A program made the translations under genes and the position numbers. DNA of 64,000 nt from a virus. Taxonomy: Duplodnaviria > Caudoviricetes. This document shows positions 33,132 through 51,432 of this stretch, piece after piece (position 1 is the stretch's first letter; every line of letters starts with the position of its first letter). The notes below the pieces were generated by a model. It did not search any database, was not told the DNA's origin, and saw only the letters and a list, made by a program, of their open reading frames with translations. The stretch lies in IMG/VR virus record IMGVR_UViG_2936072512_000001, positions 1 through 64,000 of that record; one strand, written 5' to 3'.

Positions 33132-34216
33132 GCAAGACCCGAGACGTGACGAAGATGGTCCACGAAGAAGCCAACCGGCTCGCGTTGCGGGTCGAGCGCG
33201 TCGACAGCGGTTGGGCGGTCACCTCCGTCCACCACCCGACCGGCCGCGTCCACGTCGTGCCGTACCGGCTGGGCGGCAGCGAGTTCTACAACCAGCGCGC
33301 CCAGATGCGCCGCCTGGCCAGGGAAGCCGACCAGCACGTGCTGAGCAAGCTGGTGCCGGTGATGGCCGCCGCTGCGGCTGGCCGCGATTCGGTGGAGACG
33401 CTCGTCGAGGGCGCCCGCGCTGACGGCATCCAGGTGTACGTCGCCGGCGGCATGCTCAACGTGGCCGGCCCGCTCGACGTGCTGCCCGGCTGGCGCGACC
33501 TGCTGATGGCGCGCGAGCAGGAGGTCATCAACCACCTCGCCCCGCCCCGGGGCGCAGAGCCCGCCGACCAGTCCGCCGACCAGCCCGACCCCCAGCCTGA
33601 CCCTGCCCCCGAGCCAGAAGCCGATCCATCGATAGGAGACGACATCCACGTGCGCGACATCACCGAAGACGCCGAGCTGCTGTACCGCAGGCTCCTGGAC
33701 GAAGCCAAGAAGCAGGGCCTCGCACCGCAGAAGCAGTTCGGCGTGCTCGGGCTGGTCTGGAAGGGTGCGCTGAAGCATTTCGTGGCCACCGAAGCCCCCT
33801 CCTGGGCCAACGATTACATGCGGGAGGTGGCCGAGTACCTGAAGAACACGCGGCACATCCGCAACCTCAGCCATGGCCACCACACCAAGTGGTGGATCGC
33901 CCCGGCCTGGAGCAGCGACCTGATCGTGGTCCGCCCGAAGCCGCCTGCCGATGGGCAGGACACGCAGGAGCAGCTGCCCATCGCGTCGGCGGTCGCCCTC
34001 GACAGGGTGAAGGGGCTCGCCGACCGTCTGGCAACGGCCGAGAAGTCTGCGGCCCGCGCCGAGCGTCTGTCCGCGGCGCTCGTCGCCGAGCGGAAGAAGT
34101 CGGCCGAGCTGGCTGCCGAGCTGCGGGAGACGCGCGGCCTGCTCGATGGGGCGCGGGCTGAGCTCGCCGAGTGGAAGGTCGTCGAGGACGGTCTGAAGAA
34201 GCTGGGGCTGGCGTGA
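33128..34216 (+). CDS. multidomain hypothetical protein with C-terminal coiled coil
   Basis: GAGGAGG RBS; 362 aa ORF. Confidence 0.7.
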   Translation: MSKTRDVTKMVHEEANRLALRVERVDSGWAVTSVHHPTGRVHVVPYRLGGSEFYNQRAQMRRLAREADQHVLSKLVPVMAAAAAGRDSVETLVEGARADGIQVYVAGGMLNVAGPLDVLPGWRDLLMAREQEVINHLAPPRGAEPADQSADQPDPQPDPAPEPEADPSIGDDIHVRDITEDAELLYRRLLDEAKKQGLAPQKQFGVLGLVWKGALKHFVATEAPSWANDYMREVAEYLKNTRHIRNLSHGHHTKWWIAPAWSSDLIVVRPKPPADGQDTQEQLPIASAVALDRVKGLADRLATAEKSAARAERLSAALVAERKKSAELAAELRETRGLLDGARAELAEWKVVEDGLKKLGLA

Positions 34217-34497
34217 GCGAGGTCCTTGTGCTGCCGCCCGCGAAGGAGCTGGCGCTGTGCCACGTCGACTCCACCGAGGAGTTCGTGCCCGACGTCGAGC
34301 CGTGCGGTCGGGAGTCGGTGATCGTGCTGCTGATGGGGTGTCTGCACGAGCACATCGGCCTCACCCCGGTCTGCCAGTTCCACGTCCAGGCCGCAGCGCT
34401 CGGCGAGATGGTGTGCCCGAACTGCACGTGCCACGTCTGCCCGCTGGTCGCGGTCGCCGAGGTGACCGCGTCGGGGGAGCAGGTGCCGATCAGGTGA
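34213..34497 (+). CDS. Cys-rich hypothetical protein
   Basis: GTGA overlap. Confidence 0.55.
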   Translation: MSEVLVLPPAKELALCHVDSTEEFVPDVEPCGRESVIVLLMGCLHEHIGLTPVCQFHVQAAALGEMVCPNCTCHVCPLVAVAEVTASGEQVPIR

Positions 34498-34636
34498 CCG
34501 GCCTGGTACGGCACCGTTGGCCGATGCGTGCCGCCCGTCGCCCTCCGCGTGGTCGGGGGCGGCGGGCGGCGCCGTCTACGGTTTGTGCTGACGCCCTTCC
34601 CTCAAGGGCCGCCAGGAGGATCTTGAGGGGAGTGGT

Positions 34637-35038
34637 GTGGCTGCAGAACTCGTCGGGGAGGTCGCCGCGTGGCTCGGAACCCCAGCAGCGAGAGGGATGA
34701 CGCAGGCTGAGCGGGTCGTGCTGTTCATCATCGCCGAGCGGTCGAAGAAGGAGACACGCCGCATGCTGTGGCACCGCGGCGACCGCGACGACGACGGCAA
34801 GAAGATCACCCTCACCGAAACCATCTGCCTGCGGGCCGGCCTCGGCCCCCGCGGACTCAACGAAGTCCTGCAGCGGCTCGCCGCCCGCGGGCTCGAGGTG
34901 CGGATCGCGATCGGCACCGACGCGTCGGGGCGAGTGGTGTTCGCCCGGCGCGGGCACGCGGTCGACTACCGGCTGCCGGAGCTGCCCGCCTCGGTCCAGA
35001 TGCCGCCGAGGACAGGCCACGCTCCGGCCGTACCCTAA
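34637..35038 (+). CDS. winged-HTH protein resembling the N-terminus of phage replication initiators
   Basis: MTQAERVVLFIIAE...ICLRAGLGPRGLNEVLQRL; function inferred. Confidence 0.55.
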   Translation: MAAELVGEVAAWLGTPAARGMTQAERVVLFIIAERSKKETRRMLWHRGDRDDDGKKITLTETICLRAGLGPRGLNEVLQRLAARGLEVRIAIGTDASGRVVFARRGHAVDYRLPELPASVQMPPRTGHAPAVP

Positions 35039-35331
35039 GCGGCCAGCTTCGGAGGCTCCTCGCCATCCTGATCAGGGTCTTCGTGGCGCTCCTCGACGGC
35101 CTGGTCGTCGCGCTCGTCAACCTCGGCCGCGCCCTTCGAGTTGCCCCTGCCGGGGAACAGCAGCTCGATGATGACCGCGACGACCGCGACGACCGCCGCG
35201 GCGGAGGCGACGCGGTCGTTCGGCACCAGCACACCCAGCACGGCGGCGGCCACGAGGGCCAGGATGATCCGACGCTGCCGCGTCGCGACCAGCCATGAGG
35301 CACACTGGATGATGAACCGGAAGAAACGCAT
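35035..35331 (-). CDS. small two-TM membrane protein
   Basis: hydrophobic; divergent from the XRE gene. Confidence 0.5.
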   Translation of the reverse strand: MRFFRFIIQCASWLVATRQRRIILALVAAAVLGVLVPNDRVASAAAVVAVVAVIIELLFPGRGNSKGAAEVDERDDQAVEERHEDPDQDGEEPPKLAA

Positions 35332-35409
35332 GTGACGTGCTCACTTTCGGTCGGCATCTGTCCGAGGCTGCTGCCTGAAGGTCGCGAGCCAGAGCGGCAG
35401 CAGTCCGGA

Positions 35410-35434
35410 CAGTGTCCGGATTCTCCGGACACTG
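35410..35434. promoter_or_regulatory. inverted-repeat operator
   Basis: CAGTGTCCGGA-ttc-TCCGGACACTG between divergent genes. Confidence 0.55.
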
Positions 35435-35562
35435 AATCCATTAAAAACCCCTGATGACGCTGGGATGCGGCGCGCACCGGACAACGACCCACTAGGGTGA
35501 CAAGTGGGAGATATCTGGAGTACGCCGGGATTCCGCCCGGGTCAAATAGGAAGCATTCACAC

Positions 35563-36315
35563 ATGCCCAAGAAGCCCCTCGGCCGGCCCAAGGCCCCGCC
35601 CGGACCCCAGTACGACTTCTTCGACTTGCTGCAGCGCACCGTCCGGCGGCACGACGATCCATCTCTGGACCAGCTCGCCCTGGCGACGCATCGCAGCAAG
35701 GCCGTGCTTCACCGGCACCTCGTCGGACCAAGGCTCCCGAGTGTTGATCTCCTGGATCGCCTGCTTAGGGCTCTGAAGTGCTCACAGGAGGAGCGGGAGG
35801 CGATCGGAGCGGCGTACACCGCAGCTCACGAGGACCAGATCGAGCGCACCCGCAATGCACAACAGCAGCAACCTGCGGAGTCTCGCCCTGTCACGGACCT
35901 TGCCTATGACCTTTCCTTCCTTCGTCAGCAAGGGCTGCTCGCCATGTATGAATGGGCGTCGGAGCTGCGGCGTCTGCGAGCTGATGCCGGGAACCCGAGC
36001 CTGCGCGCGATCATGGACGAAGCTGACAGGCAGGGAATCCAGCGAATCTCCAGGGGCGGGCTGGCTGAATGGCTCACTGGCCGCGGAATGCCGCGCAAGT
36101 TCGAGGCCGTCGAGCCTGTGATGGAGATGCTGGAGCGGGTCGGGACCGGGGTCGGTGTGGACAGTGAGGTAGACCCACTGCGCCGCGACCACTGGCGGAA
36201 GCTGTACAACCGGGCGCAGAGTGAGCGGAACCTGCTCTCCCACAGCGCGGCCCTGATTGGCGACACGGGGGTCGACCGAGGGCAAGACCTGTGGATACCT
36301 CCTAGACGATCATGA
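35563..36315 (+). CDS. double XRE-HTH protein
   Basis: PSLDQLA..RSKAVLHRHL.G.RLPS and ELRRLRADAGNPSLR..ISRGGLAEWL.G. Confidence 0.75.
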   Translation: MPKKPLGRPKAPPGPQYDFFDLLQRTVRRHDDPSLDQLALATHRSKAVLHRHLVGPRLPSVDLLDRLLRALKCSQEEREAIGAAYTAAHEDQIERTRNAQQQQPAESRPVTDLAYDLSFLRQQGLLAMYEWASELRRLRADAGNPSLRAIMDEADRQGIQRISRGGLAEWLTGRGMPRKFEAVEPVMEMLERVGTGVGVDSEVDPLRRDHWRKLYNRAQSERNLLSHSAALIGDTGVDRGQDLWIPPRRS

Positions 36316-36508
36316 GTTAGGTCACGGTGAGAGCGTGGCCCGTACTCCACGCTGCGACCGTACCCTAACCCCCTGTTAGGCCACGCCCAGACCGTAGCCC
36401 CTGTCCGTAACAACCTCCCTTCACTGATATCCAGAGAAAGATCCCGCCGACCACCTACAGCTGTAAGGGGGAGATGATCACGCCTCGAACCTGTGGAGAA
36501 CCGGACAG

Positions 36509-36724
36509 ATGACCATGGGACGCGTCACCGCCTACGCCATCACCTGCGACACCGAAGGCTGCCCCCTCGGCGCCGCCAACTTCGACAACAACCTCGACGA
36601 CCTCCGCGCCTACGCCGCCGCCCAAGGCTGGACCCGCTGCGCAGACGACCGCGACCACTGCCCCGACCACTCGCCCCGGGTCCAGCGCACCTTCCTCGAC
36701 GTCCTCCTCGGCCGAACCCGATGA
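36509..36724 (+). CDS. small Cys/His protein
   Basis: CD..GC...GW....DHCPDH. Confidence 0.6.
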   Translation: MTMGRVTAYAITCDTEGCPLGAANFDNNLDDLRAYAAAQGWTRCADDRDHCPDHSPRVQRTFLDVLLGRTR

Positions 36725-36906
36725 CGCACCCGCTCTTCCACCGCGGCCAGTTCTACTCCTGGGCCTACGAACAGACCATGACCCGCCTCGGCCGCCGCGA
36801 ACTCCACGGCCTCCATCACGCCTGGGTCCGCAACCGCGCCGACGCCGTACGCGACCAGCCCCGCCTCGCCGCCATCAAGACCGCATACCGCCGCAAGCGC
36901 AGGTAG
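36721..36906 (+). CDS. hypothetical protein
   Basis: ATGA overlap. Confidence 0.5.
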   Translation: MTHPLFHRGQFYSWAYEQTMTRLGRRELHGLHHAWVRNRADAVRDQPRLAAIKTAYRRKRR

Positions 36907-37390
36907 TTGGCGTACCCCACCACCAGCCACAGGGCCGCTGACCAGCACAAACGCGGGAAGCGCAGAAGCGGGCACCCCCCGACACCCCACGCAGGCCCCC
37001 GCCGTACCCCTCGTCGCTGCTGCCTTTCACCACAGACACCGTTGCAGGCGGACGCAACAGTGCCACAGCAGTGCCCCTAGAAGGAGCTGCAAGGGGTCAC
37101 AGGCGGACGAACAGGGCAAGGTCGGTACAGTGAGACCAGAACGCACCCAAGGCGGTCACAGAGGCACTACAGGGACGCACAGAAGATCCGAGCAAAGTAG
37201 ACCGTAGTCCGGTTAGGGGATTTGGGGGAGGGGTGAGGCTGTGCCGTCGCCGGCGCGCGTCCCCGCCGGCGCCCTGCCGAACGATCTTGGAACGGGCGGC
37301 GACATAGCCTCTGGCCAGGCTTTATAACGATCAGCTAACTTTCACTATCGCGTATACCTATATCCCCTTGACGTGCGTCATGATCGCTCC

Positions 37391-38191
37391 ATGTCCATCA
37401 CACAGAACACGCGAGGCGCACTCGCCGCACTGGCCCTAGCGGTCAGCACGGCAGGCGCTTTCGCTCTCACCGTGGACCCCACGTGTGAGACACCGGGGAT
37501 CGTGTGCATCCCCGGTCCCCCCGGTCCTGCCGGAGCCACCGGCCCCGCTGGAGCCCCTGGCCTGTCGGCCTACGACCTGGCCGTGCAGCAGGGCTACACC
37601 GGCAACCTGTCGGAATGGCTGGAGTCCCTTCGCGGCCCCGCTGGACCCACCGGCACCCCCGGTCCCACCGGTCCGCAGGGAAGCACCGGCCCCACCGGCC
37701 CCGCTGGCCCTATCGGGTCGCCTGGCCCCAAGGGGGAGAGGGGCGAACGCGGGGAGACCGGTCCCACCGGCCCCGCAGGCAAGCCGGGTACGCCCGGTCC
37801 CAGCGGTTCCCCCGGTCCGAAGGGCGACCGTGGCGACGTGGGGCCTACCGGCCCCGCTGGCGCTGTCGGCCCCGCTGGCTCCCCCGGTCCGAAGGGCGAC
37901 CCAGGGCGCGCCGGTACCGACTCGGCCAGCACCCGACGCGACCCCGCCAACACCCCCACGAACACCCCCACCGACACCGGCATGGGCGACACCCGCAACA
38001 CGTCGTCGGGCTTCCCCGTCGCGCCCGTGGCAGGCGGGGGCATCGGCCTGGTCCTGCTGGCCATCGCCACCGCTGTCGCGCTGAAGCACCGGCGCGCGAA
38101 CCATGCCCGTCAGGCGACGATTCCTAGCGGTTCCGCTACCAACCCTGCTGACGGCACCCCCGCCGTTGGCGACGACACCAAGGAGATCTGA
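37391..38191 (+). CDS. secreted, membrane-anchored collagen-like protein
   Basis: signal peptide, long Gly-X-Y run, [19 protein letters not shown] motif, C-terminal TM plus KHRR. Confidence 0.85.
38125..38138. promoter_or_regulatory. TAGCG-N4-CGCTA palindrome (intragenic)
   Basis: CC-TAGCGGTTCCGCTA-C, 55 bp before the next start. Confidence 0.7.
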
Positions 38192-38192
38192 C

Positions 38193-38930
38193 ATGCCCCC
38201 CAAGAGCAAGCCCACCACCAGCAAGCCCGCCCCCGTGGAGCCGACCCCCGCCGTGCCCGCGCGGCTCACCGTGGCGGAGATCAAGGCCGTGTTCATCGGC
38301 TTCCTGTCGTGGCTCTGCACCATGGCCGACGGCACCGTGAAGTCTCCCGTCATGCTCCCTTCCGGGCTCACGGCGGACGGCAGCAAGAACAGCCCACAGC
38401 GACTCGCCTACCGGTGCGACGGTGCCCGCGTGTCCATCGCGGGCATGGTCGGCGCGCAGCGTCACGGCTGGACCATGGCCGCGAAGTCGTGGCCGGTCAT
38501 CGGTCGTCTCTCCGCTGGTGAGGTCGAGGCCGCAGGGCTGTTGGCCCTGGTCTACGGCACCGAAGTGGAGCCGTTCACGCTCGACATCCTGACCAGCACC
38601 GGCCACACCGATGGGGCGCTGATCGGTGCGCTCTGGCAGGCGAGCCGCGATGACGTGGCCAACCCTGTCGCGACCCTGGTTGCCGCCCTGGCACCCAAGG
38701 TCAAGGCCGAGTCCGGTCCCAAGGTGACCCTGTCGGACGCAGAACAGCAGACCATCAAGGCCCTGCTCGGACTGCCCGTCGACCACCCGATGCACGCTTC
38801 GGGACTCGACTCGCTGACCGCCGAAGCGCAAGAGGTCTACAAGGCGCGACGTGCCTCGAAGGACGCTAAGGCCGCGATCAGGGCCGCCGCTGAAGCCGCG
38901 CAGGCCGACCAGCAGAACGACCAGGCGTAA
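38193..38930 (+). CDS. hypothetical protein
   Basis: AAGGAG RBS. Confidence 0.75.
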   Translation: MPPKSKPTTSKPAPVEPTPAVPARLTVAEIKAVFIGFLSWLCTMADGTVKSPVMLPSGLTADGSKNSPQRLAYRCDGARVSIAGMVGAQRHGWTMAAKSWPVIGRLSAGEVEAAGLLALVYGTEVEPFTLDILTSTGHTDGALIGALWQASRDDVANPVATLVAALAPKVKAESGPKVTLSDAEQQTIKALLGLPVDHPMHASGLDSLTAEAQEVYKARRASKDAKAAIRAAAEAAQADQQNDQA

Positions 38931-38937
38931 CGCCTGA

Positions 38938-38976
38938 GGCCGGTACCCGCCCGACCGAAACAGGCGGGTACCGGCC
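38938..38976 (+). terminator. stem-loop
   Basis: GGCCGGTACCCGCC...GGCGGGTACCGGCC. Confidence 0.6.
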
Positions 38977-39011
38977 CCACTTCCCCCGATCGTACCTAGC
39001 AGGGAGCAACC

Positions 39012-39698
39012 ATGCTGATCACTGCCAAGCATCCGCAGGCAATCCAGGCAGCCAAGGACGCAGCCAACGCGCGGGAGACCCGAAACGCGCACCACGACGC
39101 GTGCCCCAAGTGCGCGCACCGGGCCAACCGTTCTCAGGCGTGCCCTCTGGGAAAGATCATTCTGGACACCGTGTCGAGGCTGGAGAGCCAAGCGCGTGAC
39201 ACGCTCACGGCCTACCTGCCTCCGGGCACGCCCGTCTACTACCGGCTGGGCAAGTGGACCGTTCGGGGCCTGTCGAGTAGGGCACCTTCGGAGGGCTACC
39301 GGCTCGAAGCGCTGGAGGGCGGGTTCGCGCGGCTTGCCCTGGTCGAGGACGTCACGCCGCGCGACGGAGTAGGCGAGCATGAGCGCATCTCGGCCGTGCG
39401 CTCGACGGCGTTCGCCCTACAGTCGGCGCTCCGGAAGTGCGGCGTACGCGCCACCCTGACCGCGCGGTGGCTCCCTGACGGGGTCGGCGTTGACGTGCAG
39501 GTGATGATCGGAGAGCTGTCGCAGGACGCGCCGGAGTGGGCGCGCCAGTACTGGGCATCGCTCCACAGCATGGCCACGCGCCTGCCCGCCCTGGCGCGCG
39601 TGTCCACATCACCGGCCACGTTCGCCAAAATCGCGGGCGCGGCTCAACGGCTGAGAATCCAGGCCGACAAGATGGACCGCCTGTCACGCGCTGAGTGA
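39012..39698 (+). CDS. hypothetical protein
   Basis: AGGGAG RBS; N-terminal H..CPKC..C. Confidence 0.7.
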   Translation: MLITAKHPQAIQAAKDAANARETRNAHHDACPKCAHRANRSQACPLGKIILDTVSRLESQARDTLTAYLPPGTPVYYRLGKWTVRGLSSRAPSEGYRLEALEGGFARLALVEDVTPRDGVGEHERISAVRSTAFALQSALRKCGVRATLTARWLPDGVGVDVQVMIGELSQDAPEWARQYWASLHSMATRLPALARVSTSPATFAKIAGAAQRLRIQADKMDRLSRAE

Positions 39699-39705
39699 CC
39701 GCCCC

Positions 39706-39740
39706 GAAGCCGCGCGACCGAACCCCGGTCGCGCGGCTTC
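39706..39740 (+). terminator. stem-loop
   Basis: GAAGCCGCGCGACC...GGTCGCGCGGCTTC. Confidence 0.6.
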
Positions 39741-39844
39741 CGCATGCCGGGGGTACCCCCCTGCCTGGCGGCCGGCAGGGGCCGCCCCGCTCTTCTTTGT
39801 CCGCGAAAGTTTTTGATCTTGTTAGGGTGTGCGGGGGAGGTGTT

Positions 39845-40567
39845 GTGTCTGGTTGTGTGTGTGTTGGCCCGTGTAACAGGGTGTCGCGTGAGGCGTGGGC
39901 GGTGTTTTTGGGGGCTCGCGAGGTGCATGCGGGGGCTGTTGATCGGTGGGTGGGTGGGGGTTGTCGGGGTTCGATTCCTGCTGAGCCGGTGGAGCCTGCT
40001 GTGGAGTGGCGGGTGGGTGAGCCGCTGGTGTGTGGGCGGTGTCGGGGGTCGGTGCGGCGGGCGCTGCTTGAGGTGGATGTGTTGGCGGCGCGGTTGCGTG
40101 CGGAGTCGGAGGGTCTGGGGGCTCAGACGAGGCAGTCGCGGGTGTCGGGGTCGAGGCCTAAGCCTGTGGTGTCGCCGGTGGGGGATCTGCTGGATGAGCT
40201 GACGGGCGAGCTGTTGTGGTTGGAGGACGAGGCTCGCGCCGGGCTGGGCGTGGCGGGTCGTGCTCCTGGTGCTCGTGGTGCGCTGGCCAGGTCGAGGGCG
40301 ATCTCGTGGCTGGTGGAGGAGGGCCGCCTGGAGGTGGTGCTCGCGGTGGAGGCGGTCGCGGAGCCGCTGGTGGTGGCGGCGCTCGGCTGGGAGTCGAAGT
40401 TGCGGCGGGCGCTGGGGGAGACGCCGGGGTGGTCGCCGGCGCGGTGCGTGTGCGGGGCGCGGCATCTCGCCTGGGACGCGAAGGTGGGGTTCTTCGTGTG
40501 CGGCGAGTGCGGTCGGCACGTGTCGGAGGTGGAGGAGCGCGGCCTGGTCGTTGAGGAGGCCGGGTAG
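39845..40567 (+). CDS. Zn-ribbon protein, possible antiterminator/late regulator
   Basis: GGAGGTG RBS; CxGPCN, CGRC, RCVCG..VCGECG; function inferred. Confidence 0.6.
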   Translation: MSGCVCVGPCNRVSREAWAVFLGAREVHAGAVDRWVGGGCRGSIPAEPVEPAVEWRVGEPLVCGRCRGSVRRALLEVDVLAARLRAESEGLGAQTRQSRVSGSRPKPVVSPVGDLLDELTGELLWLEDEARAGLGVAGRAPGARGALARSRAISWLVEEGRLEVVLAVEAVAEPLVVAALGWESKLRRALGETPGWSPARCVCGARHLAWDAKVGFFVCGECGRHVSEVEERGLVVEEAG

Positions 40568-40568
40568 G

Positions 40569-41330
40569 TCACACGCACTCGGCGACCTTCCGGCTCTCAG
40601 TTTCCTGGGAGAACCAAACTCCGTAGTCGAGCACCTCAGCCCCCCATTCGTTGAATGACACACGGCGGGCAGGCTCGCCTCCTCTCTCAATGCTCCAGAG
40701 TTGATCGTCGAGAGGATGGCTGTGCCGCAGCTCGAGGCTGAAGTCCGGGGGGTTGTCTTCGAAGGCGATGAGCTCTACCCGGAATTCACCTTCCGAGCAG
40801 GGGGGGAGTTCTAACCAATAGCTCACGTGCATGATCCTTCCTGCACCCTCGCTCGGAATGCTGGTGAATTGGGCGACGGCCATGGTGGAAAGTGTGTTCG
40901 CGTTTCTGATGGTGAAGAGATACGGGCCGCGCCCTCTTGACCTCGGCGCGGACGATGTCACTCGGCGAGCGAACTGCACGAGGTGGTCCATGCGCTGTTG
41001 TTCGTCGATCTGGGCAGCTTTCTCCGAAGCGGAGTATGCCAATGTGGCGACGATCACTGCGGCGACGGTGGCGAGCGCGGTAATGATCGTGCCCCATCGG
41101 ATCGCTCGCCCTTCACGAGGCCGACGATGCTCGTCTGCTCGACGACGTTTCCGATAGGCGCGTTCGGCCGCTAACCGCGTACTCTTCGGCGAAGATCTCG
41201 GCGGCTGCAGGCGAACTCGGGCGGGCCGTAGACGTGTCTCCGGTTTCTGCGCGGGTGGGGCGGGTTCGGAAACGGGGTCGAGCTGGTTGGCGAGGTGGCG
41301 GAAGATCCGAGCGAGGCGCGGATGTGGCAT
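40569..41330 (-). CDS. single-TM membrane protein (antisense accessory)
   Basis: central TM, lower GC. Confidence 0.6.
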   Translation of the reverse strand: MPHPRLARIFRHLANQLDPVSEPAPPAQKPETRLRPARVRLQPPRSSPKSTRLAAERAYRKRRRADEHRRPREGRAIRWGTIITALATVAAVIVATLAYSASEKAAQIDEQQRMDHLVQFARRVTSSAPRSRGRGPYLFTIRNANTLSTMAVAQFTSIPSEGAGRIMHVSYWLELPPCSEGEFRVELIAFEDNPPDFSLELRHSHPLDDQLWSIERGGEPARRVSFNEWGAEVLDYGVWFSQETESRKVAECV

Positions 41331-41639
41331 ATGTCCATGATGCTCAAGCTGACTGACTGGCCGCAGGAAGATGATCGAGGAGACCCCGGCTAAGTTCGAG
41401 TTGGTGGTGAGGTCGGCGTTCCATCGCGCGTGCGGGCCGAGTCGCGTCGGTCGGTCGGTGACACGCTCGCTTTCCAGATTTTTGTTCTGTAAGTGCCTGA
41501 TGACTTGCAGGAACTACTGATTCTCGCAAGTAACTTCTGTGATCTTGAAAAGGTAGGCCTGAGGGCCTTCTAACCCTTGATAACAGTCATTATCGCAGTC
41601 TAGGACATAGATCATCTCCGAGACCGTTGAAGGAGAGAC

Positions 41640-41909
41640 ATGCTCCCTCGCGTGTACGTCAAGCGCTCCACGACGGTGCGCGCGGTACGGCTCGCCACCG
41701 ACAACCACGACGACGTCATCGCCTGGCTGGCCGAGCACAACGTCGCCGCCGAGCGGTCATGGACCGGACGGCCAGGCCTGGTGATCACCTACTGCAGCGG
41801 CGTCACCTGGTGGCTCGACGTGGGGGAGTGGGTCATGGTCGACGGCGACGGCCAGGCGGACGTGATGGTCGACGAGAAGTTCGTCGACGCCTATGAGGAG
41901 GTCGGATGA
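41640..41909 (+). CDS. hypothetical phage protein
   Basis: AAGGAG RBS. Confidence 0.7.
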   Translation: MLPRVYVKRSTTVRAVRLATDNHDDVIAWLAEHNVAAERSWTGRPGLVITYCSGVTWWLDVGEWVMVDGDGQADVMVDEKFVDAYEEVG

Positions 41910-42193
41910 ACCCGAACGACGACAGACCCGTGATCGCCGACGCGAGCTCGACGCCGGCGCGGCCGCGGTGGCGCATCCTGCTCGAAGCCGGGTCGCTCCA
42001 TCTCGGCGGCACGTGGCTGCACGAGTGCCGGAAGCCGGACTGCGACCGGGCGGTGCCGGTGAACGTGCTGTTCTGCTGCCCGGCGTGCAGCACGGCCGAC
42101 GCCGGACGCTACGAGCTTGACGCGCACTCGGGCGGGTGCGACGAGACGTGGGTGGAGCGACAGCGGCAAAGTCGCCTGCTGGGCCTGGAGTAG
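41906..42193 (+). CDS. Cys-rich hypothetical protein
   Basis: GGAGG RBS, ATGA overlap. Confidence 0.6.
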   Translation: MNPNDDRPVIADASSTPARPRWRILLEAGSLHLGGTWLHECRKPDCDRAVPVNVLFCCPACSTADAGRYELDAHSGGCDETWVERQRQSRLLGLE

Positions 42194-42203
42194 GAGGACC
42201 TCG

Positions 42204-42482
42204 GTGACCATCACGCCGACGCGCCGCGTGCACACGCTGACCCGGCGCCGCTACCGCAAGGAAGGCAAGGACGCGCACCTGATGGCATGCGACCAGCTCC
42301 GGGCGACAGAGATGCAGATCAGCGACGGCTTCTGGGAGTGCGACTGCCCGTACGGCTGCGAGTACGTCCGGTTCGAGGCCGTGATGCGGTGCCGCCACGG
42401 CCACGAGGACCTGTTCATGTGGGGCCAGTTCGGTACGAGCGACCTCGTGCTGGCGGAGATCGCGAAGGGCGGGAAGCGGTGA
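42204..42482 (+). CDS. Cys-containing hypothetical protein
   Basis: AGGAGG RBS. Confidence 0.6.
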   Translation: MTITPTRRVHTLTRRRYRKEGKDAHLMACDQLRATEMQISDGFWECDCPYGCEYVRFEAVMRCRHGHEDLFMWGQFGTSDLVLAEIAKGGKR

Positions 42483-42955
42483 ACGAGCTGGTGGAGTTCA
42501 TGAAGGTCCGCCTCGACGAGGAGGAGCGGGCGGCGCTGGCGTGGCCGGAGGACCAGCGAACCTGGAAGGCGGTGGGCGGCAAGAGCACGATCCGCTACAG
42601 CAACGGCCGCTCGGAGAACTTCCGCGTCATCGATGTCGCCGGGGACGGCTTCCTCGGCTGGGATCGCATCATGGTCGCTCGCGACCTCGGCGGCCTGGTC
42701 GAGCACATCGCCGTCCACGACCCCGCGCGCGTGCTGCGTGAAGTGGCGGCGAAGCGGAAGCTGCTCGCCGACTACGAGCACACGGTGAGGCTGCGCGACG
42801 AGGCCGCGGCCCGGGTGGAGGACGTTGAAGAGGGTCCGATGACGAGGGACTTCATGGTGTGGGAGAACGCAGTGCGCGAGGTGGCGCTGTTGGAACGGTG
42901 GTTGGAGCAGCTGGCCGCGCCGTACCTGCAGGCCGAGGGCCAGCGCGGTGAGTGA
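42479..42955 (+). CDS. DUF6221 family protein
   Basis: LVEFMKVRLDEEE...HIAVHDPARVLREVAAKRKLL. Confidence 0.75.
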   Translation: MNELVEFMKVRLDEEERAALAWPEDQRTWKAVGGKSTIRYSNGRSENFRVIDVAGDGFLGWDRIMVARDLGGLVEHIAVHDPARVLREVAAKRKLLADYEHTVRLRDEAAARVEDVEEGPMTRDFMVWENAVREVALLERWLEQLAAPYLQAEGQRGE

Positions 42956-43334
42956 CCTCGTCGGCTTCCTGCGGGACCAGCTTGACGAGGAGGAGCGCGA
43001 CGCGGGACTAGCCATGGCCGCTCTCCTGCCGGCGCGCATGCTGACCGGGGGCGAGCAGGTGACGGTGCCTGTCGAGCGGGTGCTGCGACAGCTCCCGAAG
43101 GAGCTGGCGCAGCACATCGCACGGCATGACCCGCCCGCGGTGCTGGCGGACGTCGCGTCGAGGCGGCAGATCCTCGCCGACCACCGTATGACGCAGGCCG
43201 AGGCCGTGACCGAGGACGACTCCCTGTTCTGGGAGGAGTGCCGCGAGTGCGGGGGCGAGTGGCCGTGCCGTACGGTGCGCAGGCTGGCGGCCAGGTATGA
43301 GCGCCTGCCCGGGTTCAAGGACGAGTGGCGATGA
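42948..43334 (+). CDS. DUF6221 family protein, tandem paralog
   Basis: LVGFLRDQLDEEE...HIARHDP..VLADVASRRQIL...PGFKDEWR. Confidence 0.75.
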   Translation: MSDLVGFLRDQLDEEERDAGLAMAALLPARMLTGGEQVTVPVERVLRQLPKELAQHIARHDPPAVLADVASRRQILADHRMTQAEAVTEDDSLFWEECRECGGEWPCRTVRRLAARYERLPGFKDEWR

Positions 43335-47113: not shown

Positions 47114-47133
47114 ATTAAGGAGTGCGCGGGGAT

Positions 47134-48390
47134 TTGCTGACCGCCATCTCCTTATTCGCCGGGGTCGGCGGCTTCGACCTCGCCCTGCAGCGCGCGGGCG
47201 TCCGGGTGACGGCCGCCGTCGAGATCGACAAGGCCGCGCGTCGGGTGCTGGCCGCCCGCTTCCCCGACACCGTGCTGTTCTCCGATGTGCGGGAGGTGAC
47301 CGGTGGCCGCCTCCTCGCAACCGGCTTTACCCCCGAGCAGGGGATCGTCACCGCAGGTTGGCCCTGCACCGGCAACAGCGTCGCCGGTCGCCGGCGAGGC
47401 CTCGACGACGACGGCTCCGGCCTGTGGTCGGAGGTGCGGCGGCTGCTCGCCGAGCTGCGCCCGGCCTGGTTCATCGGGGAGAACGTCCGCGGGCTCCTCT
47501 CGGTCAACCAGGGCACGGACTTCGCGCAGATTGTCGACGACCTGGCCGAGCTCGGGATGGGGTTCGCCTGGAGGGTGTTCGACGCTCGATACTTCGGAGT
47601 GGCCCAGCGACGCCGTCGTCTGCTCGTTGTCGGACATGCTGGAGGATCACCGGACGGTCCCCGCGAAGTACTTCTTGAGCCCGGCCGCCGCGGCGTCGAT
47701 CCTGCGCCGGGCGGCCAGGCGGCGCAGGACGTTGCCGGAACCCTTGGCGGAGGCACTGGCAGTCGTGGCTGGTGCAACGACCTCGACCGGATGACGTTCC
47801 TGCCCGTGGTCGAGCCGATCACCGGGCCGATCGTGGCGTCGGCGCTCACCTCGAACATGGCCGGAGCCGGGGGTGGAGTCGATGACAACACCGCCCAGGC
47901 CTGGCACATCGTTCCTGCAGGGGTCGGGGTCAGGAGGCTGACCCCGACCGAGTGCGAGCGGCTGCAGGGCTTCCCGGACGGCTGGACCGACGTGCCCGGC
48001 TGCTCGGACGCCGCCCGCTACCGGCAGATGGGCAACGCCGTCCCGGTGCCGTTGGCCGAGTGGGTCACCCGCAGAATCAGGCGGGCGTCACGCAACCCGG
48101 ATGGCGATATCCCCTCAGCAGTGCCTCAGGATCGACACGACGCGGCCAGTGAGCGCGTGATGGAACTGCTTGCTGCTCTTCCCCGTGGGGACGCGCCAGC
48201 ACTCGTTCCAGCCACCGACTGCGTCGGTGAGCGTCACCGTGAAGTATCTGACGGCACTGCAGTGGTTGTTGACGTAGATCCGGGTGTTGGTCAGTCCACG
48301 TTCCCACGAGAAGTTGATGCTTCCCGGCTCCCACTCACAGCTGAAGGAGCGAGTGGCAGCGGTTCCCGCCGTGTCGGCGAGCGCGGGTGA
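47134..48390 (+). CDS. C5 DNA cytosine methyltransferase
   Basis: FAGVGG, GWPC, GENV, QRRRR, RRLTPTECERLQGFP, GNAV; MTase fold ends near 48090. Confidence 0.92.
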   Translation: MLTAISLFAGVGGFDLALQRAGVRVTAAVEIDKAARRVLAARFPDTVLFSDVREVTGGRLLATGFTPEQGIVTAGWPCTGNSVAGRRRGLDDDGSGLWSEVRRLLAELRPAWFIGENVRGLLSVNQGTDFAQIVDDLAELGMGFAWRVFDARYFGVAQRRRRLLVVGHAGGSPDGPREVLLEPGRRGVDPAPGGQAAQDVAGTLGGGTGSRGWCNDLDRMTFLPVVEPITGPIVASALTSNMAGAGGGVDDNTAQAWHIVPAGVGVRRLTPTECERLQGFPDGWTDVPGCSDAARYRQMGNAVPVPLAEWVTRRIRRASRNPDGDIPSAVPQDRHDAASERVMELLAALPRGDAPALVPATDCVGERHREVSDGTAVVVDVDPGVGQSTFPREVDASRLPLTAEGASGSGSRRVGERG

Positions 48391-49063: not shown

Positions 49064-49849
49064 ATGGGGCTGCGCCCTCCGTTCCAGTACTACGGCGCGA
49101 AGGGCAAGCTGGCCCCGTTCCTGGCGAGCCTACTGCCGCCGCACGAGGTGTATGTCGAGCCGTTCGCCGGGTCCGCCGCGGTGTTCTTCGCGAAGAAGCC
49201 CGCCAAGATCGAGACGATCAACGACCTCAACGGCGACCTGATCGCGTTCATGCGCACCCTGCGCGACCAGCCCAAGGCGCTGATCCGGGCGGTGCAGTTC
49301 ACGCCGTACGCCCGCGCCGAGCACCAACAGGCCAAGCTCGGCGACGCCACCGCGACCGACCTGGAGCGCGCCCGCCGCTGGTGGATCCAATGCACCCAGT
49401 CCCGCTCCGGCGAAGCCGGCGCGTCCTGGCGCCGGCCGACCTCGAGGACGCGGGTGAACAACCCGGCCGGGGCGAAGCGGGCGTCAACGTCGCTGCGCTG
49501 GCATGCGGCGCGGCTGCGGGAGGCGTTCATCGAGCAGTGCGACGCGCTGGAGCTGATCCAGCGTATGGACTCGCCGACGACGGCGTTCTACGTCGACCCG
49601 CCGTACCTGCGCTCCACCCGCAACGAGTTCGGGTCGGGCCACTACGTCAAGGAGATGGACAAGGAGCACCAGCACGTTCCGCTGCTGAAGATCCTCGCCG
49701 CGTGCGAGGGCGCGGTGGTGCTGTCCGGCTACCGGTCCGACCTGTACGACGACATGCTGCCCGGGTGGCGGCGCATCGACTTCCGGGTGCGGAACGCCGC
49801 CTCCGACGAGCGGCGGCATGCCGTCGAGTCGGTGTGGGTCAACCGCTGA
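49064..49849 (+). CDS. Dam-like (D12 class) DNA adenine methyltransferase
   Basis: YYGAK, EPFAGS, IND, DPPY. Confidence 0.92.
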   Translation: MGLRPPFQYYGAKGKLAPFLASLLPPHEVYVEPFAGSAAVFFAKKPAKIETINDLNGDLIAFMRTLRDQPKALIRAVQFTPYARAEHQQAKLGDATATDLERARRWWIQCTQSRSGEAGASWRRPTSRTRVNNPAGAKRASTSLRWHAARLREAFIEQCDALELIQRMDSPTTAFYVDPPYLRSTRNEFGSGHYVKEMDKEHQHVPLLKILAACEGAVVLSGYRSDLYDDMLPGWRRIDFRVRNAASDERRHAVESVWVNR

Positions 49850-51133: not shown

Positions 51134-51432
51134 ACATCCCTGCCTGGCTCCTCAACGCTGCGCACCGTCGCGGCGTCGTCCGCAGCCTGTCGAGCCGGTC
51201 CGGCAACATGGTGAACACGCCGATCGTGATGCGGTTCTCCGCGCGGACGTGGGCGCCGCACTGGCTGCTGAAGGCCTCCCTCCGCCACTCGTGGGCGATC
51301 ATGAACCGCTCGAAGAGCGACGCGTACGCGCTCGCCCGGGTCCAGCGCTCCAACCAGGCGATGAGCGGGCTCGTCATCTGGGAGTTCACCTTCCGGCCGC
51401 TGGCCTACACCGATCAGAAGCGGGGGTGGTGA
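51130..51432 (+). CDS. hypothetical protein
   Basis: coupled on both sides. Confidence 0.55.
   Translation: MNIPAWLLNAAHRRGVVRSLSSRSGNMVNTPIVMRFSARTWAPHWLLKASLRHSWAIMNRSKSDAYALARVQRSNQAMSGLVIWEFTFRPLAYTDQKRGW

What the first reader, a model, noticed from the sequence alone, without database searches (positions are those of the whole stretch)
36500..40570. Restriction-site-depleted ~2.5 kb segment bracketed by a C/A to G/T strand-skew switch: candidate terminal or first-injected region
Seen: 36500-37200 is strongly C/A-rich and 39790-40560 strongly G/T-rich, although the genes on both sides are on the + strand. Between about 37275 and 39770 I found by eye no GCCGGC, CCCGGG, CCGCGG, GGCGCC, CTGCAG, CAGCTG, GAGCTC or CTCGAG, all frequent elsewhere. 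Codon choice dodges them: Ala-Gly as GCT/GCA GGC, Leu-Gln as CTA CAG (39417), Leu-Glu as CTC GAA. GGTACC, ACCGGT and GTCGAC do remain. The borders carry a G-rich tract (~37215-37235) and GGGGGTACCCCC (39749-39760). Inference: packaging termini or a long terminal repeat that enters the cell first and is selected against restriction sites, about 12 kb from terS.
Basis: partly seen in the sequence, partly recalled or inferred. Interest (0 to 1): 0.75.

Follow-up and report, generated by a model that had tools for sequence, protein, structure and literature searches.

The report
Restriction-site-free operon in a phage-plasmid
A three-gene unit inside a large Nonomuraea phage-plasmid, and its counterparts in about twenty related elements, has been kept almost free of the short DNA words that actinomycete restriction enzymes cut, which marks it as DNA that must stay whole when the rest of the genome is still at risk.

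Summary
None of the eight hexamers occurs between 37268 and 39771. This 2503-bp gap is the longest among 72,206 sites in the 10.5-Mb genome. No codon shuffle reaches zero (0 of 5000; 16.1 sites expected).

The segment is one insulated operon: a collagen-like membrane protein, an orphan and a zinc-binding protein. It lies in a ~106-kb phage-plasmid, upstream of a G/T-rich zinc-ribbon gene.

Synteny, purge and skew recur in relatives. In 16 pooled cassettes the eight words occur 10 times against 142-152 expected. Flanks stand at 0.70 of expectation. One-letter neighbours of the words are not depleted. NaeI- and Eco29kI-family nucleases occur in 16 and 8 of 110 genomes of the genus. This is selection against exact restriction words, not chance, composition or a recent insertion.

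Termini or a terminal repeat are not shown. However, contigs of the probable source run give the cassette about three times the depth of both flanks and break at its borders. That is unexplained.

My best reading is an establishment-type operon that works like T5 first-step-transfer DNA. Earlier notes of this scan describe similar purged islands in other phages.

The parts
35497..36315 (+). Helix-turn-helix (XRE-type) protein. It occupies the position that a replication-initiator gene holds in the relatives examined (5 of 7).
   Evidence: Pfam HTH_31, E 2.4e-6. Relatives: phrog_2447 replication initiation protein, E 3.4e-45, at the matching place.
36509..36724 (+). Small gene A (71 aa). Extreme C at third codon positions. 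Start of the C/A-rich left arm.
   Evidence: Third position C 0.83, G 0.08, T 0.00. No family hit.
36721..36906 (+). Small gene B (61 aa), ATGA-coupled to A and C-rich at third positions.
   Evidence: Third position C 0.72; sequence read.
36907..37246 (+). Noncoding T-poor tract that closes the left arm. In relatives the matching tract is 300-400 nt, C/A-rich and G/T-poor.
   Evidence: Window: A .24, C .33, G .32, T .11. Relatives: the richest 300-nt windows are 62-77% C+A with T 6-12%.
37247..37275 (.). Left border hairpin made of two copies of a palindromic octamer. It holds the last sites before the gap (37249, 37265, 37268).
   Evidence: Relatives carry a GCCGGC-containing hairpin at the same place.
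37300..37390 (+). AT-rich promoter region of the operon (GC about 0.45 in a 70% GC genome).
   Evidence: Lowest-GC 80-nt window upstream of the collagen gene in all 17 loci examined, GC 0.36-0.50. The E. coli-type consensus scan found 0 promoters, so the promoter is inferred.
37391..38191 (+). Gene C: collagen-like protein (Gly-X-Y repeats). The signal-like N-terminus and hydrophobic C-terminal anchor are read by eye, not by a predictor.
   Evidence: Pfam Collagen, E 4.3e-19. NCBIfam collagen-like adhesins are below cut-off. tblastn matches (largely the collagen-repeat part) in 14 of 17 relatives.
38193..38930 (+). Gene D (245 aa): orphan, in the variable middle slot of the operon.
   Evidence: No family, atlas or phage-record hit. 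D-like in 3 of 17 relatives by tblastn. The slot is held by three unrelated gene types.
38935..38979 (.). Hairpin between D and E (17-nt arms, 94% complementary), holding two GGTACC.
   Evidence: Inverted repeat I23.
39012..39698 (+). Gene E (228 aa): the conserved member of the operon. It has an invariant His-Cys-Cys-Cys motif, long helices and a small Tudor/SH3-like barrel.
   Evidence: Alignment A2 with 12 relatives, 20-28% identity, H27/C31/C34/C44 invariant. Model pLDDT 85.6. Only local Tudor matches, 53 residues, E 0.4.
39710..39799 (+). Two successive hairpin terminators. The second holds GGGGGTACCCCC and the first site after the gap (39771).
   Evidence: Both hairpins are kept, with different stem sequences, in the 18 aligned loci.
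39813..39841 (+). Conserved promoter and leader of gene F: the motif TTGATCTTG followed by a TANNNT hexamer, then a Shine-Dalgarno run. The G/T-rich right arm starts here.
   Evidence: Alignment of 18 loci. The skew rises about 150 nt upstream of the F start in all 18.
39845..40567 (+). Gene F (240 aa from the GTG at 39845 by homology; my queries began one codon earlier, at 39842). A helical protein with a C-terminal zinc ribbon, written almost without C or A at third positions. This is the right arm.
   Evidence: phrog_1568 'DNA binding protein', E 3.7e-8. Third position G .64-.75, A 0-.03 in the 16 of 18 homologues that read without in-frame stops. Model pLDDT 75.8, only weak matches to uncharacterised actinophage proteins.
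40569..41330 (-). Convergent gene G (253 aa), unknown. It ends the unit.
   Evidence: no family.

Best explanation
WHAT IT IS. The segment 37.27-39.77 kb is a self-contained operon of a ~106-kb temperate phage-plasmid of Nonomuraea. It has an AT-rich promoter region, three genes and hairpin terminators. The genes encode a collagen-like membrane protein (C), a variable middle gene (D) and a conserved zinc-binding protein (E).

WHAT IS SHOWN. Natural selection has removed from this operon, word by word, the 6-8-bp palindromes cut by Type II restriction enzymes that circulate in actinomycetes. Examples are the NaeI/NgoMIV, SacII/Eco29kI, NarI, NotI, SfiI, XhoI, StuI, SalI, PvuII, PstI and SacI words. 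The rest of the element keeps most of them.

WHAT IS INFERRED. The purge is confined to one transcription unit. That implies the unit must remain uncut and readable on incoming DNA at a time when the rest of the genome is not yet protected. The rest probably relies on the element's own C5 and N6A methyltransferases and on repair. On this reading it is an establishment or pre-early module that works like T5 first-step-transfer DNA or the leading region of T7-like phages. It may or may not be physically terminal.

THE SKEWED ARMS. The two arms coincide with the neighbouring transcription units. They are oriented so that any transcript running into the operon is C-rich and poor in G and U. I read them, with less confidence, as polar insulators: Rho-loading zones that keep outside transcription out of the operon.
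For: THIS WINDOW.
- 0 of the eight words in 2503 bp, the largest gap in the genome.
- 0 of 5000 codon shuffles reach 0.

RELATIVES. 17 loci from other species of the genus show the order C, middle gene, E, F.
- In 14 of 17 the largest gap of the 12-kb locus (1.3-3.5 kb) lies in or reaches into the 2.8 kb upstream of F.
- The cassette is the largest gap of each of 3 whole replicons of 97-106 kb.
- Pooled over 16 cassettes (29,760 nt) the eight words occur 10 times. Expectation is 141.8 from flank frequencies and 151.8 from a maximal-order Markov model. Flanks give 542 against 769.
- Single words against flank frequency: GCCGGC 0 vs 33, CCGCGG 0 vs 32, GGCGCC 1 vs 27.5.
- Codon shuffles over 32 cassette ORFs of 17 loci (this window's included) give 5 against 129.2. 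Over 98 flank ORFs they give 324 against 464.8.
- Four further IMG/VR loci, two with F only 50% identical, hold 0-1 sites where 6-7 are expected.

EXACT WORDS ARE THE TARGET.
- One-mismatch neighbours of the three main words stand at 1.06-1.95 of expectation. Transitions and transversions behave alike.
- 4-bp palindromes are not depleted (GGCC 0.97, CCGG 1.11). NotI (0 vs 14.1) and SfiI words (0 vs 5.0) are absent.

MATCHING ENZYMES IN THE HOST GENUS. Of 110 genomes, the NaeI family is in 16, Eco29kI in 8, NgoMIV in 2 and SacI in 1.

THE ELEMENT'S OWN METHYLTRANSFERASES. A C5 methylase lies at 47122-48390 (E 7e-57) and a D12 N6A methylase at 49064-49849 (E 1.4e-21). The backbone keeps the NaeI, NarI and SacII words at 0.77-0.87 of Markov expectation.

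PRECEDENT.
- T5-like phages resist Type I and II systems unless sites lie in the first-step-transfer region (PMC10644984, passages read).
- In Murciavirus only motifs in the first-injected region matter, and that region is variable and rich in anti-defence genes (PMC12455610, abstract).
- Here the cassette also diverges faster than its flanks. For L017 vs L026, F is 89.6% identical, the upstream region 80.8% and the cassette 72.5%.

ARMS. The F skew (+0.34 to +0.53) holds in 18 of 18 loci and starts at the promoter.
Against: - No expression data exist. No RNA run is listed, and the time of expression (early, or in the lysogen) is unknown.
- None of C, D or E resembles a known anti-restriction protein or any known early protein. 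A membrane-anchored collagen-like protein looks more like a lysogenic-conversion or exclusion function.
- In a simple race between cutting and protection, a cut anywhere is lethal. A local purge therefore pays only if entry is progressive, cuts elsewhere can be repaired, or the unit is selected on its own. None of these is shown.
- The operon lies 8-12 kb from the terminase genes in the middle of the early region. Entry from an end next to the terminase genes would therefore not bring it in first.
- All palindromes together are not depleted. SphI and BglII words are in excess: GCATGC 20 vs 6.8, AGATCT 13 vs 3.7.
- 10 of the 17 relatives form one subgroup with F 82-96% identical, so the counts overstate independence.
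- For the insulator reading, the noncoding tract in this window itself is not G-poor (C .33, G .32), and F is a translated gene.
- The ~3x depth of the cassette is not predicted by this explanation.
Confidence: 0.45

Rival explanations
1. The cassette is a direct terminal repeat, or lies at the packaging termini, of the virion DNA. It therefore enters first from either end, as the T5 long terminal repeat does. The skewed arms and hairpins are its inner border signals.
For: - The purge fits the T5/BF23 rule (PMC10644984).
Contigs of the probable source run have depth 885 and 844 over 37357-39765 against 296 and 261 in the flanks, and they break at both borders.
- The assembly holds the segment only once.
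- The mirror symmetry of the arms about the cassette would make sense relative to two ends.
- In T5-like phages a long noncoding region with direct and inverted repeats marks the inner border of the repeat (PMC10644984). Here hairpins mark both borders.
Against: - A terminal repeat gives at most 2x depth; about 3x is seen. Contigs cannot show molecule ends.
- Extra 95-99%-alike contigs over 37311-37930 point instead to several slightly different copies (table 2).
- Contigs also break at about 34.58 and 41.47 kb.
- The borders coincide with a promoter and terminators.
- All 17 relatives' assemblies run through both borders, and complete genomes G051, G024 and G105 hold one copy. This does not exclude a virion repeat.
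- The large terminase is 52-54% identical to small Streptomyces phages whose records start at the terminase gene.
- No T5-like pre-early gene family was found.
Confidence: 0.2
2. The cassette is a mobile or amplifiable gene unit selected at its own level. It is a lysogeny-expressed accessory operon (surface or exclusion function) that spreads between related elements as an intact fragment. When incoming DNA is cut in a cell that already holds a relative, the fragment is rescued by recombination through the conserved arms. Only cassettes without internal sites survive this.
For: - The unit is insulated, with its own promoter region and terminators.
- The middle gene is variable and the cassette diverges faster than its flanks.
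- Conserved arms lie on both sides; F is 68-72% identical at the DNA level across species.
- Relatives are common. F-like DNA covering most or all of the gene is found in 17 of the 109 other genomes of the genus, and shorter pieces in more. An incoming element would therefore often meet a resident one.
- The element encodes RecT.
- Both borders carry GCCGGC-containing hairpins.
- The cassette behaves as a discrete ~3x-deep unit in one culture.
Against: - No second context of any cassette was found in any assembly.
- No recombinase or repeat defines the borders; only 7-nt matches exist.
- GC-rich hairpin stems hold such palindromes by their nature.
- Cassette and flank identities mostly rise and fall together, so no clear exchange event is shown.
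Confidence: 0.15
3. The features belong to the replication origin. The operon lies beside the initiator gene. The switch from C/A to G/T marks divergent replication. The extra depth is local over-replication. The purge protects DNA that is replicated first and so is most often unmethylated.
For: - In 5 of 7 relatives examined the gene just upstream is a replication initiator. For phrog_2447 the E-values are 3.4e-45 and 3.8e-33; an O-like family matches another relative at 3.7e-6. In all 7 a J-domain protein lies further upstream; in 6 it directly precedes this gene.
- Short repeats that I read by eye as possible iterons, and an AT-rich zone, lie nearby.
- A local minimum of cumulative GC skew lies near 39 kb.
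- Depth is about 3x.
Against: - The C/A-rich arm lies to the right of the candidate iterons, the wrong side for a leading-strand effect.
- The arms are 0.7 kb long and follow transcript limits, not replication arms.
- Over-replication gives slopes, not a plateau with sharp edges.
- The initiator gene itself keeps its sites.
- This window has a different gene at the initiator's place.
Confidence: 0.08
4. Chance, base composition or codon usage, or a recently inserted foreign segment.
For:
- All 64 palindromes together are at expectation.
- 0.42% of genome windows reach the same unbiased statistic.
- The cassette uses more A/T-ending codons: GCT 0.15, GGT 0.20, CCT 0.19 against 0.02, 0.07, 0.04 in host genes.
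Against: - The purge is replicated in 16 relatives and 4 further loci at the same place.
- Codon-shuffle and Markov controls hold.
- Neighbours of the words are not depleted.
- Synteny is conserved at 20-50% protein identity.
Confidence: 0.02

Closest known systems
First-step-transfer (pre-early) DNA in the long terminal repeat of T5/BF23 (Tequintavirus)
   Same: One bounded part of the genome lacks restriction sites that the rest keeps. In T5 this part decides sensitivity to Type I and II systems (PMC10644984, passages). Hairpin- and repeat-rich noncoding DNA lies at its border.
   Different: Here the part is 2-3.5 kb rather than about 10 kb. It is one operon of three genes with no homology to the A1, A2 or dmp families. 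It is in a temperate phage-plasmid, next to the replication initiator. Its terminal position and two-step entry are not shown.
Leading (first-injected) region of Autographiviridae (T7 early region with Ocr; Murciavirus)
   Same: Only motifs in the early-entering region matter for restriction. That region is highly variable between relatives and holds anti-defence genes (PMC12455610, abstract). The cassette here is also the fastest-diverging part.
   Different: That case concerns Type I motifs and a genome end in lytic podoviruses. Here a dozen Type II palindromes are purged from an internal operon, and no anti-defence function has been identified.
Morons / accessory operons of temperate phages (concept of Hendrix and Juhala; recalled, not read here)
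   Same: It is an independent transcription unit with its own promoter region and terminators between backbone genes. Its content is variable, and its surface-protein product is typical of lysogenic conversion.
   Different: The unit is kept in synteny across the whole family, and one of its genes (E) is a core gene. Morons are not known for word-specific purging of restriction sites.
Leading region of conjugative plasmids
   Same: It is the first DNA to enter and is enriched in anti-defence genes (PMC11541004, search listing only).
   Different: In 1751 enterobacterial plasmids the leading region is not consistently depleted in 4-8-bp palindromes (PMC13478746, abstract). No conjugative transfer is known for this element.

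Membership tests
Restriction-site avoidance under selection by Type II systems | Exact recognition words are fewer than expected from composition (Markov model) and from codon usage (synonymous shuffles) | tested here: met
   Window: 0 vs 16.1 (shuffle) and 0 vs 11.4 (Markov). 16 relatives: 10 vs 151.8 (Markov). 17 loci incl. the window: 5 vs 129.2 (shuffle). Flanks: 0.70 by both controls.
Restriction-site avoidance under selection by Type II systems | The depletion is specific to the words, not to their one-letter neighbours or sub-words | tested here: met
   Neighbours of the three main words at 1.06-1.95 of expectation. 4-bp palindromes at 0.57-1.77, with GGCC 0.97 and CCGG 1.11.
Restriction-site avoidance under selection by Type II systems | Enzymes that cut the avoided words occur in the host group | tested here: met
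   Of 110 genomes of the genus: NaeI family 16, Eco29kI family 8, NgoMIV 2, SacI 1. The BglII family (a word in excess) is in 0, but that model rang nowhere, so this control is inconclusive. The link from family to word is from the family names and recall; specificities were not tested.
T5-type first-step-transfer region / long terminal repeat | Lies in a direct terminal repeat of the virion DNA | tested here: inconclusive
   No virion reads. Contig-level depth is about 3x over 37357-39765, with breaks at both borders. A repeat predicts at most 2x. There is a single copy in the assembly.
T5-type first-step-transfer region / long terminal repeat | Free of sites that the rest of the genome keeps | tested here: met
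T5-type first-step-transfer region / long terminal repeat | Encodes the pre-early proteins of the family (A1, A2, dmp relatives) | tested here: not met
   No Pfam, PHROG, NCBIfam or PADLOC family other than collagen repeats for C, D and E.
T5-type first-step-transfer region / long terminal repeat | Two-step DNA entry with an injection stop signal | not testable with these tools
   Needs infection experiments.
Moron (independent accessory transcription unit of a prophage) | Own promoter and terminator between backbone genes | tested here: inconclusive
   Terminator hairpins are present and conserved. The promoter is inferred from an AT-rich zone and a conserved TANNNT hexamer in relatives. The consensus scan found 0 promoters.
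Moron (independent accessory transcription unit of a prophage) | Present in some relatives and absent from others at the same place | tested here: not met
   An ORF at the E position in 14 of 17 relatives (intact there in 13; split in two in L021), 12 of them aligned with E in A2. tblastn matches to C (largely its collagen-repeat part) in 14 of 17. Only L018 lacks C and the middle gene, and its F is broken by 3 stops.
Rho-dependent terminator (rut-type C-rich, G-poor untranslated RNA), for the left arm | An untranslated stretch of 80 nt or more with C well above G | tested here: inconclusive
   Relatives L011-L016, richest 300-nt window: C .37-.48, G .17-.22. This window's noncoding tract: C .33, G .32. 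The rule itself is recalled.

The most novel reading that the evidence does not exclude
The cassette may be a physically separate DNA unit: a terminal repeat, or an excisable or tandemly amplifiable segment. Its borders are hairpins holding NaeI-type words, and they coincide with the edges of the word-free zone and of the ~3x depth plateau. Selection would then act on the fragment itself. It would survive restriction intact, and then either be expressed first or be rescued into a resident relative through the conserved arms. The mirror-image C/A and G/T arms would act as polar guards, through Rho loading on inward transcripts or through protection of ends. That would be a restriction-proof gene capsule inside a phage-plasmid. 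I know of no such arrangement, but I ran no literature search aimed at this claim; my four searches covered related topics only.
Probability: 0.2. Interest if true: 0.85.

Novelty: new variant of a known kind. Interest (0 to 1): 0.62.

Why it matters
Region-specific loss of restriction sites is known from a few lytic coliphages and marine podoviruses, where it marks the DNA that enters first and carries anti-defence genes.

Here the same signature is found in a temperate phage-plasmid family of rare actinomycetes. It is confined to one three-gene operon of unknown function and is kept through deep divergence. It therefore points to genes that are probably decisive at the very start of establishment. 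It also gives a sequence-only way to find such genes.

The list of purged words reads as a record of the restriction enzymes these elements meet in nature.

Two features are unexplained and directly testable: the mirrored strand-composition arms, and the threefold depth of exactly this segment in one culture. Either could reveal a new way of insulating, amplifying or moving a gene unit.

Tried and rejected
INVERTED-REPEAT HOMOLOGY BETWEEN THE ARMS. None found. There is only about 60% compositional complementarity in many registers, and no protein similarity.

RNA GENES. No tRNA in the window. No Rfam match in 35000-42000 at E up to 1.

PROMOTER SCAN. 0 sigma-70-type sites in 35300-41800. Of the 4 terminator-like sites, none is one of the hairpins described here. 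The scan's rules do not fit this GC-rich host.

RELATIVES AMONG SEQUENCED PHAGES AND PLASMIDS. Megablast of 36300-41300 found nothing. tblastn with F, D and E against phage records found nothing, apart from one chance row at E = 5. F against plasmid records found nothing. No virion-sequenced relative could therefore be used to place the ends.

FUNCTION OF D, E AND F.
- The word-index search with E found only E itself.
- Atlas look-ups for D and E gave no usable hit.
- The fold of F gave no PDB match at E <= 0.001 and only weak matches to uncharacterised actinophage proteins.
- The fold of E gave only a local Tudor-like barrel and generic helical bundles, with Z up to 8.5, in the range the tool calls common.
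- No anti-restriction fold was recognised. This does not exclude one.

DEAMINATION DECAY OF METHYLATED SITES. Rejected as the cause, because transversion neighbours are as common as transition neighbours.

STRAND SKEW AS A GENERAL WAY TO AVOID PALINDROMES (ONE BLOCK FROM 36.5 TO 40.6 kb). Rejected. F keeps a GCCGGC at about +590 in most relatives, forced by conserved Pro-Ala-Arg codons.

OTHER STRONGLY SKEWED WINDOWS OF THE GENOME. Of 18 loci examined, by my reading of the printed translations most are low-complexity protein repeats, unlike F.

EXPRESSION. No RNA holder is listed for the stretch. This says nothing about expression.

JUNCTION HUNTING FOR THE ~3x SEGMENT.
- No second copy in the assembly.
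- No 21-mer of either border elsewhere, and no contig end touching 35.5-41.5 kb.
- Only 7-nt matches between the borders.
- Read laying reported no joints. Two loose ends and 25 records were not shown.

TYROSINE INTEGRASES. None on this contig. One serine-recombinase domain lies 19 kb upstream of the window. It was not followed up.

SUPPLEMENTS. Supplementary files of the papers were not opened. They may hold site maps of T5-like first-step-transfer regions that bear on the comparison.

Full report
WHERE THE WINDOW LIES. The window is the reverse strand of a 106,290-bp contig (69% GC) of a 10.5-Mb, 53-contig genome. Names attached to homologues of one gene place it in Nonomuraea, with relatives in Microtetraspora (on a 94-kb plasmid) and Streptosporangium. 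The contig is a phage-like replicon. It carries:
- RecT at 21186-23069 and a ligase-family protein at 25048-25845;
- a C5 DNA methylase at 47122-48390 and a D12 N6A methylase at 49064-49849;
- a ParB-N protein at 51249-52154;
- a large terminase at 52424-53941, a portal protein and a minor capsid protein.
It is collinear with, and a circular permutation of, a 96.7-kb second replicon of a two-contig genome (G051:C2) and a 98.5-kb contig of another species. I therefore treat the element as a phage-plasmid. Some relatives sit in chromosomes.

THE OBSERVATION. The eight hexamers occur 352 times in the window, and none lies between 37268 and 39771. This 2503-bp gap is the largest among all gaps between 72,206 sites in the genome.

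Shuffling synonymous codons within the three genes gives 16.1 +/- 3.4 sites and never fewer than 5 in 5000 trials. Host codon usage would give 26.4. Genes of the window in general stand at 0.69 of their shuffle expectation (275 vs 398.4 over 70 ORFs).

The words were chosen after the fact, and the total of all 64 palindromic hexamers is normal: 47 against 47.5-54.8, with CGCGCG, GCGCGC and GGTACC in excess. A statistic that does not choose words puts the segment in the top 0.42% of genome windows (176 of 41,519). That is unusual but not decisive for a reader who scanned 64 kb.

The skew is as described. It comes from third codon positions: C 0.83 and 0.72 in the two small left genes, and G 0.68, T 0.20, A 0.00 in the right gene. 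It extends into the adjoining noncoding DNA. The + strand frame of the right gene is the real one, since it matches phrog_1568 at E 3.7e-8. The two arms are not inverted copies of each other.

WHAT THE SEGMENT IS. It is one operon:
- an AT-rich upstream zone (37300-37390);
- gene C (37391-38191), a collagen-repeat protein (Pfam E 4.3e-19) whose signal-like start and hydrophobic C-terminal anchor I read by eye;
- gene D (38193-38930), an orphan;
- a hairpin;
- gene E (39012-39698);
- two hairpin terminators (39710-39799).
The last sites before the gap lie in a hairpin at 37247-37275. The first site after it lies in the second terminator. The purged zone is therefore the transcription unit.

Downstream, gene F has its own promoter motif, conserved across relatives: TTGATCTTG followed by a TANNNT hexamer. 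F is followed by a convergent gene.

THE RELATIVES SETTLE THE STATISTICS. A DNA search of 110 genomes of the genus found F-like DNA at 68-72% identity, covering most or all of the gene (677-801 nt), in 17 of the 109 other genomes, and shorter pieces in more. I fetched 12 kb around 17 of them. tblastn shows the same order, C then D or another middle gene then E then F, with a further shared gene 5-6 kb upstream.

An ORF at the E position was called in 14 of the 17, intact there in 13 (split in two in L021). Twelve of them align with the window's E at 20-28% identity with an invariant His-Cys-Cys-Cys motif. The exception, L018, has lost C and the middle gene, and its F has three in-frame stops. 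It looks like a decaying copy, so I left it out of the pooled counts.

- In 14 of 17 relatives the largest gap of the eight words in the 12-kb locus (1.3-3.5 kb) lies in or reaches into the 2.8 kb upstream of F.
- In each of the three whole replicons the cassette is the largest gap.
- Pooled over 16 relatives (29,760 nt between -2000 and -140 of the F start), the eight words occur 10 times. Expectation is 141.8 from flank frequencies and 151.8 from a maximal-order Markov model of the cassettes themselves. The flanks stand at 542 of 769.
- Codon shuffles of 32 cassette ORFs (17 loci, the window included) give 5 against 129.2. For 98 flank ORFs they give 324 against 464.8.
- The collagen genes were mostly dropped by my ORF filter in that test, so the result does not rest on them.
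- Four additional loci from IMG/VR, two with F only 50% identical, have 0-1 sites where 6-7 are expected.

Ten of the 17 relatives form one subgroup with F 82-96% identical. The number of independent lineages is therefore nearer a dozen. Their cassettes are still only 70-85% identical, which is enough change to have made many sites.

EXACT WORDS ARE THE TARGET. Against flank frequencies the pooled counts are GCCGGC 0 of 33, CCGCGG 0 of 32, GGCGCC 1 of 27.5, CTCGAG 0 of 5.2, AGGCCT 0 of 5, GTCGAC 1 of 7.1, CAGCTG 1 of 7.1, GAGCTC 2 of 12 and CTGCAG 2 of 11.8. NotI words are 0 of 14.1 and SfiI words 0 of 5.0.

One-letter neighbours of the three main words are at 1.06-1.95 of expectation, with transitions and transversions alike. 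The 4-bp palindromes inside them are not depleted. This excludes base composition, codon preference and deamination decay.

Among palindromes with a flank-based expectation of 10 or more, 5 of 19 fall to 0.17 or below. Among the 970 non-palindromic word pairs the 1st percentile of the ratio is 0.14.

By name, the purged words are the recognition sites of enzymes first isolated from Nocardia and Streptomyces (recalled, not tested). The corresponding Pfam nuclease families occur in the genus: NaeI in 16, Eco29kI in 8, NgoMIV in 2 and SacI in 1 of 110 genomes.

The backbone itself avoids some words. Markov ratios are CTCGAG 0.25, GTCGAC 0.31 and CAGCTG 0.47. It keeps the all-G/C words at 0.77-0.87. 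One possible reason is protection by the element's own C5 methylase. That is inference.

THE ARMS. The right arm is a family trait. F has GC skew +0.34 to +0.53 in 18 of 18 loci, starting about 150 nt before the start codon. In the 16 homologues that read without in-frame stops, third positions are G .64-.75, T .11-.24, C .06-.16 and A 0-.03. In the two distant loci the skew is weaker, +0.24 and +0.26.

The left arm is positional rather than tied to a gene family. In 5 of 7 relatives examined the gene there is a replication initiator (phrog_2447 at E 3.4e-45 and 3.8e-33; an O-like family at 3.7e-6 in another subgroup). In all 7 a J-domain protein lies further upstream; in 6 it directly precedes this gene. 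The initiator gene is followed by 300-400 nt of noncoding, C/A-rich, T-poor DNA and a hairpin. This window has different genes at that place (an HTH protein, A and B), with the same bias. Both arms coincide with transcription units.

Transcripts running toward the operon from either side would be C-rich and poor in G and U. That is the composition Rho is known to load on (recalled). I therefore read the arms as insulators. This is weakly supported: the noncoding tract of this window is not G-poor. Replication-strand and Chi-like readings are possible but fit the geometry less well.

TERMINI. Nothing places the virion ends here.
- The terminase is most like those of small Streptomyces phages, at 52-54% identity.
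- The SoJo record starts 25 bp before the terminase gene and ends 4 bp after its last gene.
- No sequenced phage or plasmid record holds F; no sequenced phage record holds D or E.
- Only contigs, not reads, are available for one run, which is probably the source of this assembly.

Laid on 34000-43000, those contigs gave an unexpected result. The contigs over 37357-37855 and 37916-39765 have mean word depths of 885 and 844. The flank contigs have 288, 296, 261 and 280. The contigs break between 37325 and 37357 and at 39765, which matches the borders of the purged zone. Summed depths also show extra contigs, 95-99% alike, over about 37311-37930.

The assembly holds the cassette once, with no trace of its borders elsewhere. 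Three complete genomes of relatives hold theirs once. The tool warns that contig depth is not a copy number, and other breaks occur nearby.

The size, about 3x, exceeds what a terminal repeat can give. It fits better a tandem amplification collapsed by the assembler, an excised multicopy form, or copies in unassembled contexts. I cannot decide between these.

COMPARISON WITH WHAT IS KNOWN. The closest case is the T5/BF23 first-step-transfer region, where Type I and II systems act only through sites in that region (PMC10644984, passages). Next is the leading region of Murciavirus, which is variable and rich in anti-defence genes (PMC12455610, abstract). Conjugative plasmids show no consistent palindrome depletion in their leading regions (PMC13478746, abstract).

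This element shares the signature, and possibly the logic, but not the proteins, the size or the shown position. It fails the homology feature of the T5 family, so it is not a member. It is also unlike a classical moron, since it is kept throughout the family.

Earlier notes of this scan describe purged early-gene islands in other uncultured phages, one of them in a phage-plasmid. They are unchecked by me and are not independent support, but they suggest the phenomenon is widespread.

VERDICT. The terminal-repeat part remains open and is the less likely reading, with one intriguing result in its favour. The function of the three proteins and the cause of the local selection are inferred, not shown.

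Noticed in passing
window 37357-39765 (run X1): Contigs of the probable source run give the cassette about 3x the word depth of both flanks (844-885 vs 261-296) and break at its borders. Extra 95-99%-alike contigs cover about 37311-37930. The assembly has a single copy.
   Followed up: partly
L013:4598-5446, L012:3986-4798, L017:3950-4987 and neighbours: In 5 of 7 relatives examined the gene just upstream of the cassette is a replication initiator (phrog_2447, E 3.4e-45; O-like in another subgroup). In all 7 a J-domain protein lies further upstream; in 6 it directly precedes this gene. In L013 and L014 the gene holds short repeats that I read by eye as possible iterons, followed by an array of C3 runs. 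This may be the phage origin.
   Followed up: partly
window 39012-39698 and alignment A2: E belongs to a fast-evolving family with an invariant His-Cys-Cys-Cys motif and a Tudor/SH3-like barrel between long helices (pLDDT 85.6). It has no known relative.
   Followed up: partly
window 51249-52154: A ParB N-terminal-domain protein lies directly upstream of the large terminase. It may be the DNA-recognition partner for packaging. I found no recognisable small terminase.
   Followed up: no
window 37913, 38942, 38967, 39752: Four of the window's seven GGTACC words lie in the purged segment, three of them in hairpins. Expectation from the genome is 0.19.
   Followed up: no
L033 (G065:C133) first 50 bases: The contig of one relative starts with what looks by eye like the 3' part of a tRNA gene (T-arm). 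That element may be integrated at a tRNA, or the contig may break at a repeated tRNA.
   Followed up: no
The rest is identical.
   Followed up: no
G000:C26 ends: The head and tail of the contig share about 70%-identical stretches and map to adjacent places of G051:C2.
   Followed up: no
L017, L019, L020 and others, about 95-130 nt upstream of the collagen gene start: One subgroup of relatives has a perfect palindrome of the type TCGAAC-N4-GTTCGA and a GGCCGGCC word upstream of the cassette promoter. A -10-like TANNNT hexamer lies 6-7 nt before the start codon, which suggests an operator and a leaderless mRNA.
   Followed up: no
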